Shown: in pieces, positions 15,400 to 25,466 of the stretch
How positions within the stretch are numbered: the first letter of the stretch is position 1
Layout of the letters: each line of letters opens with the position of its first letter
From: a phage
Assembly (NCBI GenBank): GCA_012145005.1
Contig: GCA_012145005.1_3029.2
Reading direction: 5' to 3' (one strand)
Length of the DNA: 34,536 nt
Translations under genes and position numbers: made by a program
Notes under the pieces: generated by a model
What the model saw: the letters and a program-made list of their open reading frames with translations, nothing else
The model's database searches: none
What the model was told of the DNA's origin: nothing

Positions 15400-15549
15400 T
15401 TACTGCATGACTGTGATAACTGTCATGATAACACGTTGAATTCCGAACGCAAGAAGACCTCCTGCTACGGCTGGAACAACACCTAAACCCGTCAGTAAAA
15501 TGCTACCGGATACTAATGCAGCGCTTGTAATACCTATGAATGGACTCAT
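15400..15549 (-). CDS. small hydrophobic protein (49 aa; motA.1 position), not in ORF track
   Basis: ATG overlaps gene 52 stop (ATGA); MSPFIGITSAALVSGSILLTGLGVVPAVAGGLLAFGIQRVIMTVITVMQ; followed by an intrinsic terminator. Confidence 0.5.
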   Translation of the reverse strand: MSPFIGITSAALVSGSILLTGLGVVPAVAGGLLAFGIQRVIMTVITVMQ

Positions 15550-16874
15550 TTGATTTCCTCTAAATCTTTGGTGTATTCTGTAACTACATCAGTAGTTTTC
15601 CAATATTCGTTTTCTTCTTTTTTGGCTTTAGCTTCTTCAGCAAGTTTCTTCGCTTCATCGGAAGTCATATGAAAAATATTCATTCCGACTAGTTTATCAA
15701 CATAAGAAGAATACATATCAATTTTAGAAAGTTCTTCGGTCAGTTCTTTACGAGTTTTACCTTGTACAACAATTTCACCTGAAATTACTTTCTTAATGAA
15801 ATGTGCCTTGGCAAAGGCTAAACGAAATGCCGATTCAGTTTCTTTGATTTTGTTATCAATTCGTTTTTGGACATAAGTTTTACGAACTTCAACGAAGTCT
15901 TTGATTAAATCAACTACGTTATCGTAAACTTGTAGTTTTCCTTTCTCATTAATAACGGTAATATTCTGGGAACGACGCTCAATCAACCCGAAGTCTTTCA
16001 TAATTTTTGCATGGCGTTCTTCTTCGTTATCGCTCAAGGAATATTCTTTACGGAATTTAACTTTGAAGCCAAAACCATGCTCACCACAAGCATCATCCCA
16101 CGTAATGAAGCCTTTATCTTCAAGCGGGTCTAAGATTTTACTCACGTAAGTTTCACGATCATACTTATACGGAATCTCAGTGATATTCATTTGAGTTCGT
16201 GAAGTAAACTTGTACGTTCCACGAATTTCATATTGACCGTCAATTTCAACGACTTCACCACGAAATTCTGGGAATTCTACCTTCGGTTTAGTTACTTTCT
16301 TTCCTTGAAGAGCTTGTAATACAGCTTTCTTAACAGAAGAAACACTATGAGGAAGAATGTAAGTTGCATAACCAGTTGCAATACCGGAAACGCCATTAAG
16401 AAGAACAGTAGGAATAATAGGCAAATAGAAAGCAGGCGGAATGTGTTCTTTATCTTGATGTACTGGAGCATATTCAGTATCTTTATATACGTTATAGAAA
16501 TTTTTACTTACACGAGCAAAAATATAACGACTAGCTGCTGCCTTTTGGACAGTACGAGAACCGAAGTTTCCTTGACCATCTAACAAAGGAAAGTTATTAT
16601 TCCAAGTGTTAGCCATCAAAGCCCCCGCATCTTGTGCAGAGTTTTCACCATGGTGATATCCAAGGTCCGCTACACCACCTGCAATAGAAGCGAGTTTGTG
16701 AAACTTATCTTTATTTCCTCGTGCCAAATCAAGAGCTCGAGCAATAACAAATCGTTGAACTGGCTTAAATCCATCAATCATATTTGGAATAGCACGATTT
16801 TCAACCGTGTACATAGCATAAGCCAATGCTTCATTATCAATGATACTTTTTAAATCGCGATTATTCAGTTGCAT
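15546..16874 (-). CDS. 52: DNA topoisomerase II medium subunit gp52 (442 aa)
   Basis: MQLNNRDLKSIIDNEALAYAMYTVENRAIPNMIDGFKPVQRFV, GyrA-like breakage-reunion domain; recognised as T4 gp52. Confidence 0.9.
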   Translation of the reverse strand: MQLNNRDLKSIIDNEALAYAMYTVENRAIPNMIDGFKPVQRFVIARALDLARGNKDKFHKLASIAGGVADLGYHHGENSAQDAGALMANTWNNNFPLLDGQGNFGSRTVQKAAASRYIFARVSKNFYNVYKDTEYAPVHQDKEHIPPAFYLPIIPTVLLNGVSGIATGYATYILPHSVSSVKKAVLQALQGKKVTKPKVEFPEFRGEVVEIDGQYEIRGTYKFTSRTQMNITEIPYKYDRETYVSKILDPLEDKGFITWDDACGEHGFGFKVKFRKEYSLSDNEEERHAKIMKDFGLIERRSQNITVINEKGKLQVYDNVVDLIKDFVEVRKTYVQKRIDNKIKETESAFRLAFAKAHFIKKVISGEIVVQGKTRKELTEELSKIDMYSSYVDKLVGMNIFHMTSDEAKKLAEEAKAKKEENEYWKTTDVVTEYTKDLEEIK

Positions 16875-16878
16875 AAAT

Positions 16879-17019
16879 TTACCATACTAGTGAATGTAGT
16901 GCCATAATAACATCAGAAATGAAAAGCACGACTTGAATTAATCCAAACATTACTCCATAATATAGTGCTATTAATAAAATAGCAAGGGCTAATGAATAGC
17001 CCAAGATTTTCTTAATCAT
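16879..17019 (-). CDS. small membrane peptide (46 aa), not in ORF track
   Basis: ATG at 17019; MIKKILGYSLALAILLIALYYGVMFGLIQVVLFISDVLMALHSLVW; stop 5 nt before gene 52 ATG. Confidence 0.4.
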   Translation of the reverse strand: MIKKILGYSLALAILLIALYYGVMFGLIQVVLFISDVIMALHSLVW

Positions 17020-17170
17020 TAGTAGATAACAACACAAATGTTAAATATGCACACATACCCTGAGCTAAAGCTTGCGAAAACACACTGCTGGCATCAATAC
17101 AGATAGTTAAAACACATGCTACTATCCAACAAATAAATGAAATAACTCCTAATAATTTTGCAATATTCAT
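17012..17170 (-). CDS. ac: small membrane protein (52 aa), Ac-like (acriflavine-sensitivity position)
   Basis: Track ORF starts at TTG 17200; ATG at 17170 follows GAGGAG SD; MNIAKLLGVISFICWIVACVLTICIDASSVFSQALAQGMCAYLTFVLLSTND. Confidence 0.5.
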   Translation of the reverse strand: MNIAKLLGVISFICWIVACVLTICIDASSVFSQALAQGMCAYLTFVLLSTND

Positions 17171-17180
17171 AATATTCTCC

Positions 17181-17336
17181 TCAACTATTTTTAGAACCAA
17201 TGTACGCGAATAATGATAAAATCGCTAATACGCCCTGAGCTGATGCTTGCAAAAATACTGAAGTTTCTCCAGTTATTACTGTTCCGATGCATAAAAAGAA
17301 CCAACAGAAAAAGGCTATACCGTGAACAAATTTCAT
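17181..17336 (-). CDS. small membrane protein (51 aa), paralogue of the Ac-like ORF; not in ORF track
   Basis: ATG at 17336 with GAGGA SD; MKFVHGIAFFCWFFLCIGTVITGETSVFLQASAQGVLAILSLFAYIGSKNS. Confidence 0.45.
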   Translation of the reverse strand: MKFVHGIAFFCWFFLCIGTVITGETSVFLQASAQGVLAILSLFAYIGSKNS

Positions 17337-17343
17337 ATTTTCC

Positions 17344-17424
17344 TCACTGGCGTCCGAAGACGCCTTTGGTTTTAAGATTGTTACGATAGAACTGCATCAC
17401 ATGTTCGTTATGGAAATTACTCAT
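17344..17424 (-). CDS. stp: Stp peptide (26 aa)
   Basis: ATG overlaps ndd stop (TAATG); translation [26 protein letters not shown] recognised as T4 Stp; not in ORF track. Confidence 0.7.
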
Positions 17425-17882
17425 TAATATGCCTGCAAAACAAATTTAAAGTTATCAGCCAACATACGGTTCATTTCTTCAAGTGTTTGATACTCAGAAT
17501 GATGATTACGAGTAAACGCTAAAGCTAACTGACCTTTTCCAAATCCCGTCGTCAGAGGTTTCATCTTAGAAGCAGGCAGATAAAATACTGTATATGGAAC
17601 ATTGTTATTTGCAATAGTACGTGCAAGCTGAGACCGACGTTGACGAATATGACTTAGAACTGCGCTGAATCCTTGCTTAGAACGCTGATTACCTACATAA
17701 AATCGTGCAGACACACATGGATTACTAAATGGACGACCATCTAATTTACTCACTAAAAAGTAAAATCCAGGTTTAGATAAAATGTCTTTGTGTGGAGTTC
17801 CCAAAAACCACTCACCGCCCTTGATTGTACCAATAACAGTAGCGCCTGCATTATTCAGATCAGTAACAGTCATATATTTCAT
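17424..17882 (-). CDS. ndd: nucleoid disruption protein Ndd (152 aa)
   Basis: Track ORF has a 16-codon read-through extension; ATG at 17882 follows GAGGAAATTA; [35 protein letters not shown]. Confidence 0.8.
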
Positions 17883-18158: not shown

Positions 18159-18166
18159 AATTCACC

Positions 18167-18274
18167 TCAAGGAGTATAAAATCCAAATGCAGTTGTTGAC
18201 CATCCCATCCAATATGGAAAATTTGCACCAATGTAAAACATAAGAATATAAAACCAACCGCTCAGCAAATTCAT
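18167..18274 (-). CDS. small hydrophobic peptide (35 aa), not in ORF track
   Basis: ATG overlaps upstream stop (ATGA); MNLLSGWFYILMFYIGANFPYWMGWSTTAFGFYTP. Confidence 0.4.
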   Translation of the reverse strand: MNLLSGWFYILMFYIGANFPYWMGWSTTAFGFYTP

Positions 18275-18492
18275 CATTTTACACCATTCCAAATTGTTTC
18301 AACCACAGATTTTAAACCATTTTGATGAATATCCATTCCGACTACCGCCATCAAATAGATTCCAACTACAACTGAACCTAAGGCAAAAATCAGCATGAAA
18401 ATGAATAAAGCCGGAAAAATATTATCGAAAAACCATTCAATAAATGTAAAAGCACTACGTTTACGCTTCATATTTTCCTCACATAAATCCAA
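18274..18492 (-). CDS. small membrane protein (72 aa)
   Basis: Track ORF; hydrophobic core IFPALFIFMLIFALGSVVVGIYLMAVVG. Confidence 0.5.
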   Translation of the reverse strand: MDLCEENMKRKRSAFTFIEWFFDNIFPALFIFMLIFALGSVVVGIYLMAVVGMDIHQNGLKSVVETIWNGVK

Positions 18493-18592
18493 AATAAGCG
18501 TTTAATACATCAATCATTAAAACGATTGGGAATATACTCAAAACTATTAGTATTATAACTACATTCCATATAGCTTTAACAATCTTTTTCAT
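18479..18592 (-). CDS. small membrane peptide (37 aa)
   Basis: Track ORF 18479..18691 reads through an early promoter; ATG at 18592 follows GGAGGAACAGAAA; MKKIVKAIWNVVIILIVLSIFPIVLMIDVLNAYFGFM. Confidence 0.5.
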   Translation of the reverse strand: MKKIVKAIWNVVIILIVLSIFPIVLMIDVLNAYFGFM

Positions 18593-18602
18593 TTTCTGTT
18601 CC

Positions 18603-18630
18603 TCCGTAGTTGATAGGGTAATAGTACCAC
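18603..18630 (-). repeat. dispersed promoter-leader repeat, partial copy 4
   Basis: Minus strand GTGGTACTATTACCCTATCAACTACGGA. Confidence 0.4.
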
Positions 18631-18650
18631 GGAAGAACAGTCTTGTAAAC
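18621..18650 (-). promoter_or_regulatory. early promoter for ORF 18479..18592
   Basis: GTTTAC, 18-bp spacer, TGGTACTAT. Confidence 0.55.
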
Positions 18651-18659
18651 AACTTTTTT

Positions 18660-18758
18660 TTAAAAATATTCGTAATAAATGTGAATACCAACTACTACCG
18701 CTGAAACCTGTGCAACCCACCACGCACAAGCAATAAGTACAGAATTCAAAATTTTCAT
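18660..18758 (-). CDS. small hydrophobic peptide (32 aa), not in ORF track
   Basis: ATG overlaps upstream stop (ATGA); MKILNSVLIACAWWVAQVSAVVVGIHIYYEYF. Confidence 0.35.
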   Translation of the reverse strand: MKILNSVLIACAWWVAQVSAVVVGIHIYYEYF

Positions 18759-18841
18759 AATAACCTCATTACAAAAGTAAATGTTAAACAAATTAATGGA
18801 ATACTAATTAACCAAACAAAACACCACCATAATGAACTCAT
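18755..18841 (-). CDS. small hydrophobic peptide (28 aa), not in ORF track
   Basis: MSSLWWCFVWLISIPLICLTFTFVMRLL; stop overlaps next ATG. Confidence 0.35.
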   Translation of the reverse strand: MSSLWWCFVWLISIPLICLTFTFVMRLL

Positions 18842-18869
18842 AGTTCAATCTCAACGATTTTCATTTTAC

Positions 18870-23602: not shown

Positions 23603-23632
23603 ATTATACCACATCCTTGTGGTAAAGTAAAC
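23603..23632 (-). promoter_or_regulatory. early promoter for rIIA.1-position ORF and rIIA
   Basis: GTTTAC overlapping the gene 39 stop, 18-bp spacer, TGGTATAAT. Confidence 0.6.
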
Positions 23633-25449
23633 TACTGGCTCATCCATTCTTTACGAAGGTCAGCATTATCTCCCATGAGCATTTCAAAAAGCTCTTTCCA
23701 ATTCTCAGGAAGTTTAACAACATCATATACTGGATTTTGAATCATCTCACGATATTCAGATTTTTCCAAAGAGCCAAGTCCTTTAATATAACGGATGCTA
23801 TGTTTAGGTAGAGCATCTTTGGCACTCTCATATTCAGCGACTGTATAAAACCATTCTTGTTTTTTACCGACCTGAGCGATGATTACAGGAGTTTTGACAA
23901 AGCGAATTCGTCCTTGCTCAAACAGTTCTGGCCAATTACTAAAAAATCCGAGCAGAGAAGGATAAATGCTTCCTAGACCATCATGGTCAGCATCAGTCAT
24001 AATAGCAATATTATGATAATTCAAGTTTTCGGCTTTTTCACCAAGAACTAATCCAGTGATTGCGCAAATATCAAACAGTTCTTTGTTTTTAAGCATATCA
24101 GCATATGACATACCCCAACTGTTGAGAACTTTACCACGCAATGGATAACCACCGTGAAGTTCTTTATCACGAACATCAATAAGATATCCGATAGCAGAAT
24201 CACCCTCAGTCAAGAAAAGAGTCGTGTCAGCATCTTTACCACAAAGATTCGCTTTAATGTGTTTATGAACCTTAGCTTTAGAAGCCTTTTTAGCTGCTTT
24301 AGTTTCTGCTGCTTTTTCTGCCGCCAATTTACGAGCCAAGGCAGCTTCAATAATTGGCATTAAAATTGCTTCATTGTTTAAAATGGCGCGCGAAATCTTT
24401 TTAGCATCAAGCTGAATATGACTACGAATTTCACCAAATGGAGAAGTCAAACGCTCTTTAGTTTGAGAATCAAATCGCATGTTTTTCATATCACGAACAA
24501 ACATGACGATAGTCAAACATTCTTTAACACGTGCTTTAGTTACATCAATTTTGAACTTACGTTTGATTTGTGGAATAAGGTCTTCACAAATATCATCCAT
24601 AACACAGTCAATGTGATGACCACCATTCTTAGTATGAATGTTATTAACGTATGTTAATTGACGAAAACCATCCGGTGAACGACCAACCGCAATAGAACAA
24701 TTTTCTTGTTCTTGAACAATAGCATGCTCATCATATTGGCGTGCATATTTCTTAAAATTACCCTGAACCTTTTTACCATTAAAGGTAAATTGAATATCAG
24801 GATAAACTACTGCAAGTGTCTGGAGACGATCCAGTGTAATGTCAAGATAAACCTGAGACAGCTCATTAGTTTCAAATGACATAAAATCAGGAATGAAAGT
24901 AACACGAGTTCCTTTCCATTTTCCAGGAATATCTTCCCATGATTTATTTTCCATGCCATTTGAACAACGAACTACAATATTATTTTGACCATCGCCAGTT
25001 TCACCAACAAACATTACAGAAAAAATGTTAGTTAAACTAGAACCAACACCGTTCATACCACCAGTGACGCGTTCTTTATCATCACCGAAGTTACCACCTG
25101 CTTTTGGAATAGTCCAGGCAGCAACAGGACCAGGAATTTCTTCGCCGGTAGGTGTTTTAACCATCGCTTGTGGAATACCGCGACCGTTATCTTCAACTGT
25201 TACTTGATTGTTTTTGATAGTAACATTAATTTTATTCGCGAATTTAAACTTAGTACGAATACCTTCATCTACTGAGTTATCGATAATTTCATCAATAAGC
25301 TTAACAAGACCAGGTACATACTGAACACTTTCCCATTTACCAAACAGAAAGCGCTCATGCATTTCATTAGCAGAAGAGCCAATATACATGCCGCTACGCT
25401 TTTTGATATGTTCAATATCGCTCAGAATTTTAATTTCATTCTTAATCAT
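23632..25449 (-). CDS. 39: DNA topoisomerase II large subunit gp39, uninterrupted form (605 aa)
   Basis: Track start is GTG at 25452; ATG at 25449 follows GAGGA; MIKNEIKILSDIEHIKKRSGMYIGS; GyrB-like ATPase and Toprim (EGDSA) in one reading frame. Confidence 0.9.
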   Translation of the reverse strand: MIKNEIKILSDIEHIKKRSGMYIGSSANEMHERFLFGKWESVQYVPGLVKLIDEIIDNSVDEGIRTKFKFANKINVTIKNNQVTVEDNGRGIPQAMVKTPTGEEIPGPVAAWTIPKAGGNFGDDKERVTGGMNGVGSSLTNIFSVMFVGETGDGQNNIVVRCSNGMENKSWEDIPGKWKGTRVTFIPDFMSFETNELSQVYLDITLDRLQTLAVVYPDIQFTFNGKKVQGNFKKYARQYDEHAIVQEQENCSIAVGRSPDGFRQLTYVNNIHTKNGGHHIDCVMDDICEDLIPQIKRKFKIDVTKARVKECLTIVMFVRDMKNMRFDSQTKERLTSPFGEIRSHIQLDAKKISRAILNNEAILMPIIEAALARKLAAEKAAETKAAKKASKAKVHKHIKANLCGKDADTTLFLTEGDSAIGYLIDVRDKELHGGYPLRGKVLNSWGMSYADMLKNKELFDICAITGLVLGEKAENLNYHNIAIMTDADHDGLGSIYPSLLGFFSNWPELFEQGRIRFVKTPVIIAQVGKKQEWFYTVAEYESAKDALPKHSIRYIKGLGSLEKSEYREMIQNPVYDVVKLPENWKELFEMLMGDNADLRKEWMSQ

Positions 25450-25466
25450 CACTTATCCTCGTTTGG

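What the first reader, a model, noticed from the sequence alone, without database searches (positions are those of the whole stretch)
17012..17336. Tandem paralogous small membrane proteins (Ac-like pair)
Adjacent ORFs MNIAKLLGVISFICWIVACVLTICIDASSVFSQALAQGMCAYLTFVLLSTND and MKFVHGIAFFCWFFLCIGTVITGETSVFLQASAQGVLAILSLFAYIGSKNS share length, hydropathy and the motif F-x-C-W-x(2)-x-C-x(10)-SVF-x-QA-x-AQG. This looks like a local duplication followed by divergence.
Basis: seen in the sequence. Interest (0 to 1): 0.4.

Follow-up and report, generated by a model that had tools for sequence, protein, structure and literature searches.

The report
Two tandem Ac genes, T4-like phage
This T4-like phage carries two diverged side-by-side copies of the small membrane-protein gene ac (one T4-type, one of the older, more widespread type); the pair is real and already annotated in about 50 related phage genomes, so it is an ordinary finding that also suggests T4's single ac gene may be a deletion derivative.

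Summary

- **The pair.** Two adjacent minus-strand ORFs (17012-17170, 52 aa; 17181-17336, 51 aa) are 43% identical over 40 residues. None of 20,000 shuffles reached that score, even when hydropathy was preserved. Both belong to phrog_2501.
- **Context.** The window is a Tequatrovirus segment with gene order ndd-stp-ac(type 2)-ac(type 1)-52.1-52.
- **Type 1** is the orthologue of T4 Ac (96% identical).
- **Type 2** is the form found as the only ac gene in RB51-like phages. It is also the form closest to the single Ac of Mosigvirus and Jiaodavirus.
- **Distribution.** About 50 of about 526 Ac-carrying phage records have the tandem pair. Aplg8's pair is 100% identical and is already annotated as two "acridine resistance protein" genes.
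- **History.** T4 has one copy. Its junction fits a deletion between the repeated Shine-Dalgarno-ATGAA sequences. T2 and YUEEL01 keep a remnant of type 2 fused to stp. The tandem is therefore ancestral to at least some single-copy genomes.
- **Function (inferred).** Both proteins model as two-helix membrane hairpins. Both keep the family core, including the glycine whose G38R change inactivates T4 Ac. They probably sensitise infected cells to acridines, with efflux-pump blockade as the proposed route. Type 2 has never been tested.

Low novelty, modest interest.

The parts
17012..17170 (-). ac type 1: orthologue of T4 Ac, 52 aa plus stop (MNIAKLLGVISFICW...STND). Its last 8 nt overlap the start of 52.1.
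   Evidence: ORF and translation. 96% identical to T4 Ac, and 100% identical in hundreds of Tequatrovirus records. T4 annotation. phrog_2501, E = 3.7e-25. No nonsynonymous change against dS 0.03-0.18.
17171..17180 (-). 10-nt spacer found only in the tandem arrangement. With the type-2 stop codon it reads AGTTGAGGAGAATATT and carries the Shine-Dalgarno sequence of type 1.
   Evidence: The same spacer survives as part of the deletion scar in YUEEL01 and T2.
17181..17336 (-). ac type 2: second Ac-family gene, 51 aa plus stop (MKFVHGIAFFCW...GSKNS). This is the RB51-like, cross-genus form with the TGETSVF turn.
   Evidence: ORF. phrog_2501, E = 4.9e-26. 100% identical to the second 'acridine resistance protein' of Aplg8. 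76% to the sole Ac of RB51. AlphaFold2 model is a helix-turn-helix, H2-22 and H27-50, pLDDT 76. dN/dS 0.1-0.7.
17337..17343 (-). 7-nt spacer between stp and type 2. With the stp stop codon it reads GTGAGGAAAAT and carries the Shine-Dalgarno sequence of type 2. In T4 this same sequence precedes the single type-1 gene.
17344..17424 (-). stp, 26 aa ([26 protein letters not shown]), the upstream neighbour. Its 3' end contains the hairpin GGCGTC-TTCG-GACGCC.
   Evidence: Identical to T4 Stp. Hairpin.
16879..17019 (-). 52.1, a 46-aa predicted membrane protein (DUF7396), the downstream neighbour. It is not an Ac paralogue.
   Evidence: Pfam PF24129, E = 1.3e-22. phrog_3595. T4 annotation.
15546..16874 (-). 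Gene 52, DNA topoisomerase II medium subunit, 442 aa. Used as the synteny anchor.
17424..17882 (-). ndd, nucleoid disruption protein. Used as the synteny anchor. The start at 17882 is inferred from the length of T4 Ndd.

Best explanation
The locus holds two tandem, diverged members of the T4 Ac family of roughly 50-residue inner-membrane proteins, in a Tequatrovirus genome.

Shown:
- The 52.1-proximal gene (type 1) is the orthologue of the classical T4 ac gene.
- The stp-proximal gene (type 2) is the form that other Tequatroviruses (RB51, ECO78, wV7, Sf23) carry as their only ac gene. It is also the form closest to the single Ac of Mosigvirus and Jiaodavirus.
- The tandem state occurs in about 50 sequenced phages.
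- T2 and YUEEL01 keep a type-2 remnant plus the tandem-specific spacer. At least those single-copy genomes therefore descend from a tandem ancestor.
- T4's own junction is type 2's Shine-Dalgarno sequence and ATGAA joined to the type-1 body. This is what a deletion between the two repeated SD-ATGAA sequences would produce.

Inferred:
- An SD-plus-gene unit of about 166 bp duplicated in a Tequatrovirus ancestor.
- The downstream copy diverged quickly into type 1 and then came under very strong constraint.
- Lineages later lost one copy, the other, or both by short-homology deletion.

Mechanism (inferred):
- Both proteins would be made early, from the same minus-strand gene run as ndd and stp.
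- Each would insert in the inner membrane as a helical hairpin, with both ends cytoplasmic and an acidic turn facing the periplasm.
- Each would use the conserved small-residue face of helix 2 (Q-A-x-A-Q-G) to pack against a partner helix.
- For T4 Ac the known result is acridine accumulation in the infected cell. The current proposal is blockade of AcrAB-TolC efflux.
- Type 2 keeps every family-invariant residue, so it most likely has the same biochemical activity. It may act on a different pump, a different host variant, or as a hetero-oligomer with type 1.
For: - **Paralogy.**
- **Synteny and identity.**
- **T4 has one copy.**
- **Distribution.**
  - Type 1 occurs at 80% identity or more in 460 records.
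  - Type 2 occurs at 60% or more in 95 records, plus 78 weaker hits that include other genera.
  - 51 records cover at least 80% of the pair.
  - The bridging query P0009 gives 576 places in 526 records, so about 50 records have two places.
- **Junctions.** The flanks are identical in tandem, T4-type and RB51-type genomes. T4 reads GAGGAAAATATGAA followed directly by the type-1 body.
- **Scar.**
  - YUEEL01 and T2 carry stp codons 1-18 fused in frame to ...NFGILGSKNS.
  - After the fusion come the stop codon and the tandem-specific spacer, before type 1.
  - The scar class is about 40 records, estimated from evenly spaced rows.
- **Natural double loss.** Sf25.
- **Type 2 is nearer to other genera.** It is 48% identical to Mosigvirus Ac and 45% to Jiaodavirus Ac, against 29% and 34% for type 1.
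- **Selection.** Type 1 has dN = 0. Type 2 has dN/dS 0.1-0.7.
- **Structure.** A two-helix hairpin with two hydrophobic segments and charges only at the ends and the turn.
- **Invariant core.** It includes G35, equivalent to T4 G38. G38R abolishes acridine sensitivity (bioRxiv 10.1101/2025.06.30.662393).
- **Experiments on T4 Ac.** Expression sensitises E. coli to acriflavine, and T4 with ac deleted is resistant. The same view is repeated in PMC13250531.
Against: - No experiment exists for type 2.
- The efflux-pump model for T4 Ac is a proposal from a preprint, without binding data.
- The dN/dS estimates rest on 3-12 substitutions per comparison. The two tandem-lineage type-2 alleles give 0.69 (7 nonsynonymous against 3 synonymous changes), so relaxed constraint on type 2 in tandem carriers cannot be excluded.
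- The RB51-type state (type 2 alone) could be the pre-duplication state rather than a loss.
- T4's clean junction is compatible with deletion but does not prove it.
- The counts include duplicate GenBank and RefSeq records. They are partly extrapolated from sampled rows.
- The AlphaFold model used only 9 aligned sequences and reaches moderate confidence (pLDDT 76, pTM 0.40).
Confidence: 0.8

Rival explanations
1. Allele stacking rather than duplication in place. Types 1 and 2 diverged as alternative alleles, or orthologues in different phage lineages, at one slot. An unequal or illegitimate crossover between co-infecting phages later put them side by side.
For: Both types exist as the sole gene in the same slot with identical flanks. 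Type 2 is as close to Mosigvirus Ac as to its own neighbour. T-even phages recombine freely (established knowledge). T4_ev151, whose name and record suggest a laboratory-evolved T4 derivative, carries a tandem with a different type-2 allele.
Against: The tandem-specific spacer AGTTGAGGAGAATATT is absent from both the T4-type and RB51-type genomes examined. It is present in the T2 and YUEEL01 scars, so the tandem is not a simple join of present-day single-copy forms and predates those lineages. At least three distinct type-2 alleles are linked to the tandem or its scar. No source lineage with type 1 outside Tequatrovirus was found. The nearest relative, P0009, is only 51-54% identical to type 1 and is metagenomic.
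Confidence: 0.15
2. One copy is a decaying, redundant duplicate. Type 2 in tandem carriers would be drifting towards loss and contribute nothing.
For: Most Tequatroviruses have lost it. dN/dS between the two tandem-lineage type-2 alleles is 0.69. The locus is prone to deletion.
Against: The ORF is intact with a strong Shine-Dalgarno sequence. It is at least 95% identical in 48 records. It keeps every family-invariant residue. The same type is the only ac gene in RB51-like phages and in other genera, so it is a working form. All other dN/dS values are 0.1-0.5.
Confidence: 0.1
3. Chance resemblance of two unrelated hydrophobic mini-ORFs caused by shared transmembrane composition.
For: Both are short and very hydrophobic (GRAVY 1.15 and 1.42), a situation in which spurious similarity is common.
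Against: None of 20,000 hydropathy-preserving shuffles reached the observed score (z = 11.2). Both hit one PHROG family at about E = 1e-25. The metagenomic sequence P0009 is intermediate between them.
Confidence: 0.01

Closest known systems
Bacteriophage T4 Ac (gene ac, NP_049877.1, 51 aa; T2 'pr')
   Same: Type 1 is 96% identical, differing by one extra Thr near the C-terminus. It lies in the same place, with its 3' end overlapping 52.1. Type 2 shares the length, the two-helix hydrophobic layout, the family core W...T...V..Q[AS]..QG, and the glycine that is needed for function in T4.
   Different: T4 has a single gene and this phage has two. Type 2 is only about 38-43% identical to T4 Ac, has a TGET turn where T4 has IDAS, is three residues shorter at the N-terminus, and has never been tested for the acridine phenotype.
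The annotated 'acridine resistance protein' pair of Enterobacteria phage Aplg8 (YP_010066046.1 and YP_010066047.1) and about 50 other Tequatrovirus records
   Same: 100% nucleotide identity over the whole 325-bp pair, with the same gene order.
   Different: Nothing. This is the same locus, already deposited and labelled. I found no paper that discusses the second copy.
RB51/RB68/RB33-type Ac, the sole ac gene in those Tequatroviruses, and the single Ac of Mosigvirus and Jiaodavirus
   Same: Type 2 is 71-78% identical to the RB-type proteins. It is 48% identical to Mosigvirus Ac and 45% to Jiaodavirus Ac, with the same TGET(S/T)V turn.
   Different: In those phages the gene stands alone and, in RB51, overlaps 52.1. 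Here it is followed by a spacer and the type-1 gene, and it ends in KNS rather than KND.
E. coli AcrZ, a 49-aa accessory protein that binds AcrB. This is a functional analogy recalled from memory, not tested here.
   Same: A very small inner-membrane protein proposed to act by docking on the transmembrane domain of the RND pump AcrB and changing what is exported.
   Different: As I recall, AcrZ is a single bent helix encoded by the host that aids export of some drugs. Ac is a phage-encoded two-helix hairpin that appears to reduce export. No sequence or structure comparison with AcrZ was run, and no Ac-AcrB contact has been shown.

Membership tests
T4 Ac family (phrog_2501) | Significant full-length match to the family profile | tested here: met
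   Type 1: E = 3.7e-25, residues 1-51 on profile positions 1-50. Type 2: E = 4.9e-26, residues 1-50 on profile positions 1-50.
T4 Ac family (phrog_2501) | About 50 residues forming two hydrophobic helices joined by a short polar turn | tested here: met
   AlphaFold2 model of type 2 has H2-22 and H27-50, pLDDT 76. Hydropathy profiles and charge positions of both copies agree. ESMFold of T4 Ac in the preprint gives two helices joined at D26-A27.
T4 Ac family (phrog_2501) | Position between ndd/stp and 52.1/52 on the early-gene strand | tested here: met
   Window ORFs compared with T4, Aplg8, RB51, OLB35 and KP179 annotation.
T4 Ac family (phrog_2501) | Family-invariant residues, including the Gly (T4 G38) whose substitution abolishes function | tested here: met
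   The core W-x6-T-x7-V-x2-Q-[AS]-x2-Q-G is present in both copies and in all six other members tested. The G38R phenotype comes from bioRxiv 10.1101/2025.06.30.662393.
T4 Ac family (phrog_2501) | Wild-type product makes infection or cells acridine-sensitive, and loss gives resistance | not testable with these tools
   Shown only for T4 and T2 type-1 proteins in the literature. Never reported for type 2.
Pfam PF26944 (attached to two type-2 relatives in the precomputed table) | Match above the Pfam gathering score | tested here: inconclusive
   P0004 and P0007 carry PF26944.1. The local Pfam copy returns no such family for them or for the window proteins, so the model appears to be missing from that copy.
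Small-protein modulators of AcrB (AcrZ-like); considered for mechanism only | Physical binding to AcrB, with the effect depending on acrB/tolC | not testable with these tools
   Proposed for T4 Ac without binding data. There are no solved relatives by sequence or by fold.

The most novel reading that the evidence does not exclude
The tandem pair is the ancestral state of the T-even ac locus, and the two proteins are not redundant. Type 2 would keep the original target. Type 1, the only form ever studied, would be a neofunctionalised copy with a different membrane target, or the two would work as a heterodimer. Classical T4 genetics would then have characterised only a deletion-derived half of the system. 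Carriers of both genes, of one gene or of neither would differ in which host efflux or transport systems they shut down.
Probability: 0.25. Interest if true: 0.4.

Novelty: already known. Interest (0 to 1): 0.2.

Why it matters
- **Naming.** ac is one of the oldest T-even genetic markers, and its natural role is still unknown. The name 'acridine resistance protein' is also backwards, because the intact gene causes sensitivity.
- **Two forms.** The family comes in two forms, and about a tenth of Ac-carrying phage records hold both. Acriflavine selection, or ac used as a mutational target or engineering site, may therefore behave differently in those phages. A single knockout may not give resistance.
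- **Natural comparison set.** The variants found here give a ready-made panel for testing the efflux-pump hypothesis:
  - both genes
  - type 1 only
  - type 2 only
  - neither gene (Sf25)
- **Limits.** This is a refinement of a known small gene family, not a new system.

Tried and rejected
- **RB51 as a chimera.** I suspected RB51's single ac gene was a type-2/type-1 recombinant. Translation shows a full-length type-2 protein, so I rejected this. Sf23 and wV7 do have a type-1-like tail (FWLLNEND), which I did not resolve.
- **Pfam.** No family matches either copy. PF26944, seen in the precomputed table, cannot be reproduced with the local library.
- **Word-indexed homologue search.** It found only 7 close relatives.
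- **Exhaustive profile search.** It found only about six genuine 50%-identity clusters. Two other hits are long proteins (859 and 2254 aa) matching only about 16 profile positions in several repeated stretches, which I disregard. The family is therefore very narrow.
- **Origin of the intermediate P0009.** It is absent from cultured phages (best hit 57%) and from IMG/VR.
- **Solved structures.** There was no hit by sequence and none by Foldseek.
- **Literature on a second ac copy.** I found none. The older acridine paper, PMC1213221, is not held.
- **Counting the scar class by coverage.** Gapped alignments to T4-type genomes contaminated the result, so only a sampled estimate of about 40 records can be given.

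Full report
**What is in the sequence**

The finding lies on the minus strand of a Tequatrovirus (T4-like) segment. The gene order is ndd (17424-17882), stp (17344-17424), a 51-aa ORF (17181-17336), a 52-aa ORF (17012-17170), 52.1 (16879-17019) and topoisomerase gene 52 (15546-16874). The 1.25-kb region is 96-98% identical to hundreds of T4-like phages. The first 25 kb of the window matches tail-fibre to rIIA/topoisomerase regions of Tequatroviruses at about 95%.

Each starts at an ATG behind a strong Shine-Dalgarno sequence.

**Is the similarity real?**

Yes.
- BLASTP gives 43% identity over 40 residues without gaps, E = 6e-10.
- The Smith-Waterman score of 85 was never reached in 20,000 shuffles (mean 24).
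- It was also never reached in 20,000 shuffles that preserve the hydrophobic/polar pattern (mean 25, z = 11).
- Both proteins match one PHROG family, phrog_2501, at about E = 1e-25 over their full length.

The two cysteines are not family features. The core shared by all members examined is W-x6-T-x7-V-x2-Q-[AS]-x2-Q-G. A family HMM finds only these two copies in the window.

**What the two copies are**

T4 itself has one ac gene between stp and 52.1. The 52.1-proximal copy here (type 1) is 96% identical to T4 Ac. It is identical or nearly so in about 460 phage records.

The stp-proximal copy (type 2) is 100% identical to a second gene that Aplg8 and others already annotate as "acridine resistance protein".
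- It is 71-78% identical to the only ac gene of RB51, RB68, RB33, ECO78, wV7 and Sf23.
- It is 48% identical to the single Ac of Mosigvirus and 45% to that of Jiaodavirus.
- Type 1 is only 29% and 34% identical to those two.

Type 2 is therefore the conservative, cross-genus form, and the well-known T4 protein is the divergent one. A metagenomic protein, P0009, is intermediate (51-54% to type 1, 44% to type 2). I could not place it in any phage.

The whole family amounts to about six 50%-identity clusters among 1.84 billion representative proteins.

**How common is the tandem?**

Two independent counts agree on about 50 tandem carriers, roughly a tenth of Ac-carrying records.
- 51 records cover at least 80% of the 325-bp pair.
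- The bridging query P0009 yields 576 places in 526 records, so about 50 records have two places, and the counts leave no room for a third copy in more than a few records.

GenBank/RefSeq duplicates are included in these numbers.

**History of the locus**

The flanks are identical in all arrangements. Each gene in the tandem is preceded by TGAGGA(A/G)AATAT(-/T)ATGAA, so the repeat unit includes the ribosome-binding site.

- **T4.** Its junction is the upstream copy of that sequence joined directly to the type-1 body. A deletion between the two repeats would leave exactly this.
- **YUEEL01 and T2.** These carry stp codons 1-18 fused in frame to the last codons of a type-2 allele (...NFGILGSKNS). 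The stop codon and the tandem-specific spacer follow, and then type 1. That is a deletion scar, so those "single-ac" genomes descend from a tandem ancestor. Evenly spaced sampling suggests about 40 such records.
- **Sf25.** It has lost stp, any type 2 and two thirds of type 1.
- **RB51-type genomes.** They may have lost type 1 through a short AAT microhomology, or they may represent the pre-duplication state. The data do not decide.

Divergence between the copies is old, with dS about 1.3 (saturated). Type 1 shows no amino-acid change against dS of 0.03-0.18. Type 2 shows dN/dS of 0.1-0.7. These figures rest on few substitutions.

**How it probably works**

Shown elsewhere for T4 (and, in older work cited there, T2) type 1:
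- Loss of ac gives acridine resistance.
- Expression of Ac in E. coli increases killing by acriflavine and ampicillin.
- G38R inactivates the protein.

The authors propose that Ac sits in the inner membrane and blocks AcrAB-TolC (bioRxiv 10.1101/2025.06.30.662393; repeated in PMC13250531).

Shown here:
- Type 2 models as a helical hairpin, H2-22 and H27-50, with the turn at G-E-T-S and pLDDT 76.
- Both copies have two hydrophobic segments. Basic residues sit at the N-terminus of both copies, and at the C-terminus of type 2 only. The acidic residue sits in the turn.
- Both keep the Q-A-x-A-Q-G face that contains the functionally required glycine.

Inferred:
- Both termini are cytoplasmic.
- Helix 2 uses its small-residue face to pack against a partner.
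- Type 2 has the same kind of activity as type 1.

Whether the two are redundant, have different targets or pair with each other is open. No solved structure or fold neighbour exists.

**Comparison with what is known, and verdict**

The pair is a member of the T4 Ac family on every feature I could test. The phenotype itself cannot be tested here.

The identical locus is already deposited and labelled in GenBank. I found no paper that discusses the second copy, and the one recent functional study searched only at 93-100% nucleotide identity.

The finding is correct and ordinary. The additions from this work are:
- the two-type classification;
- the frequency estimate;
- the evidence that some single-copy T-even genomes, T2 among them, are deletion derivatives of a tandem, and that T4's junction fits the same history.

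Interest is low to modest (0.2).

Noticed in passing
window 17349-17364: A perfect hairpin, GGCGTC-TTCG-GACGCC, lies inside the last codons of stp, immediately 5' of the Shine-Dalgarno sequence of ac type 2. On the plus strand it scores as a terminator-like site followed by a T-run. It is conserved in T4, RB51 and T4_ev151. Its role (mRNA stability, translational coupling, or an antisense terminator) is unknown.
   Followed up: partly
window 17257-17273 (minus strand): The codons for the conserved TGETSVF turn of type 2 form a 7-bp stem, ACTGGAG-AAA-CTTCAGT, followed by ATTTTT, which the scan flags as terminator-like. The stretch is invariant at nucleotide level in all six type-2 alleles aligned, although their dS elsewhere is 0.2-0.35. 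This may simply be coincidence with protein-level constraint.
   Followed up: no
L008 (T2, PV958097.1), locus about 505-660: In this T2 record the ac type-1 gene has a nonsense codon at position 11 (TCA to TAA). Its stp is a 27-aa fusion with a type-2 remnant. The Ac preprint also shows a stop codon in a T2 sequence.
   Followed up: partly
L009 (Shigella phage Sf25, MF327009.1): A natural deletion runs from about stp codon 17 to about ac type-1 codon 33. This phage has neither stp nor any intact ac gene, so it is a ready-made null for experiments.
   Followed up: partly
L007 (YUEEL01), locus 408-494; also L008: The deletion scar creates a 28-aa Stp variant, [28 protein letters not shown], that keeps the first 18 Stp residues. 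Whether it still acts on the EcoprrI/PrrC system was not examined.
   Followed up: no
window 23632-25452 (minus strand): A 606-aa ORF lies in the region that hit records annotate as the DNA topoisomerase II large subunit. From memory, that is the size expected for an unsplit gp39+gp60. If so, this phage lacks T4's split gene 39/60 and the gene-60 translational bypass.
   Followed up: no
P0009 (metagenomic protein, no locus): MKIIGVLAFCLWVFACIMTITTGESRVFLQALSQGTCAYLTFMILIHDND combines the TGES turn of type 2 with type-1-like helix residues. It is absent from cultured phage records and from IMG/VR. It may mark the lineage in which type 1 arose.
   Followed up: partly
L010 and L012 (Sf23, wV7): These type-2-only phages have a C-terminal tail, FWLLNEND or FWLLNKND, that resembles the type-1 tail FVLLSTND more than the FAYIGSKNS tail of the window's type 2. 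The cause could be an ancestral tail or a small gene conversion.
   Followed up: no
window 18160-18850 (minus strand): A run of very small hydrophobic ORFs lies downstream of ndd. These correspond to the ndd.1-ndd.5 genes annotated in Aplg8 (ndd.1, ndd.2 and ndd.2a in the T4 stretch fetched). The HMM scan shows that none of them is an Ac-family member.
   Followed up: partly
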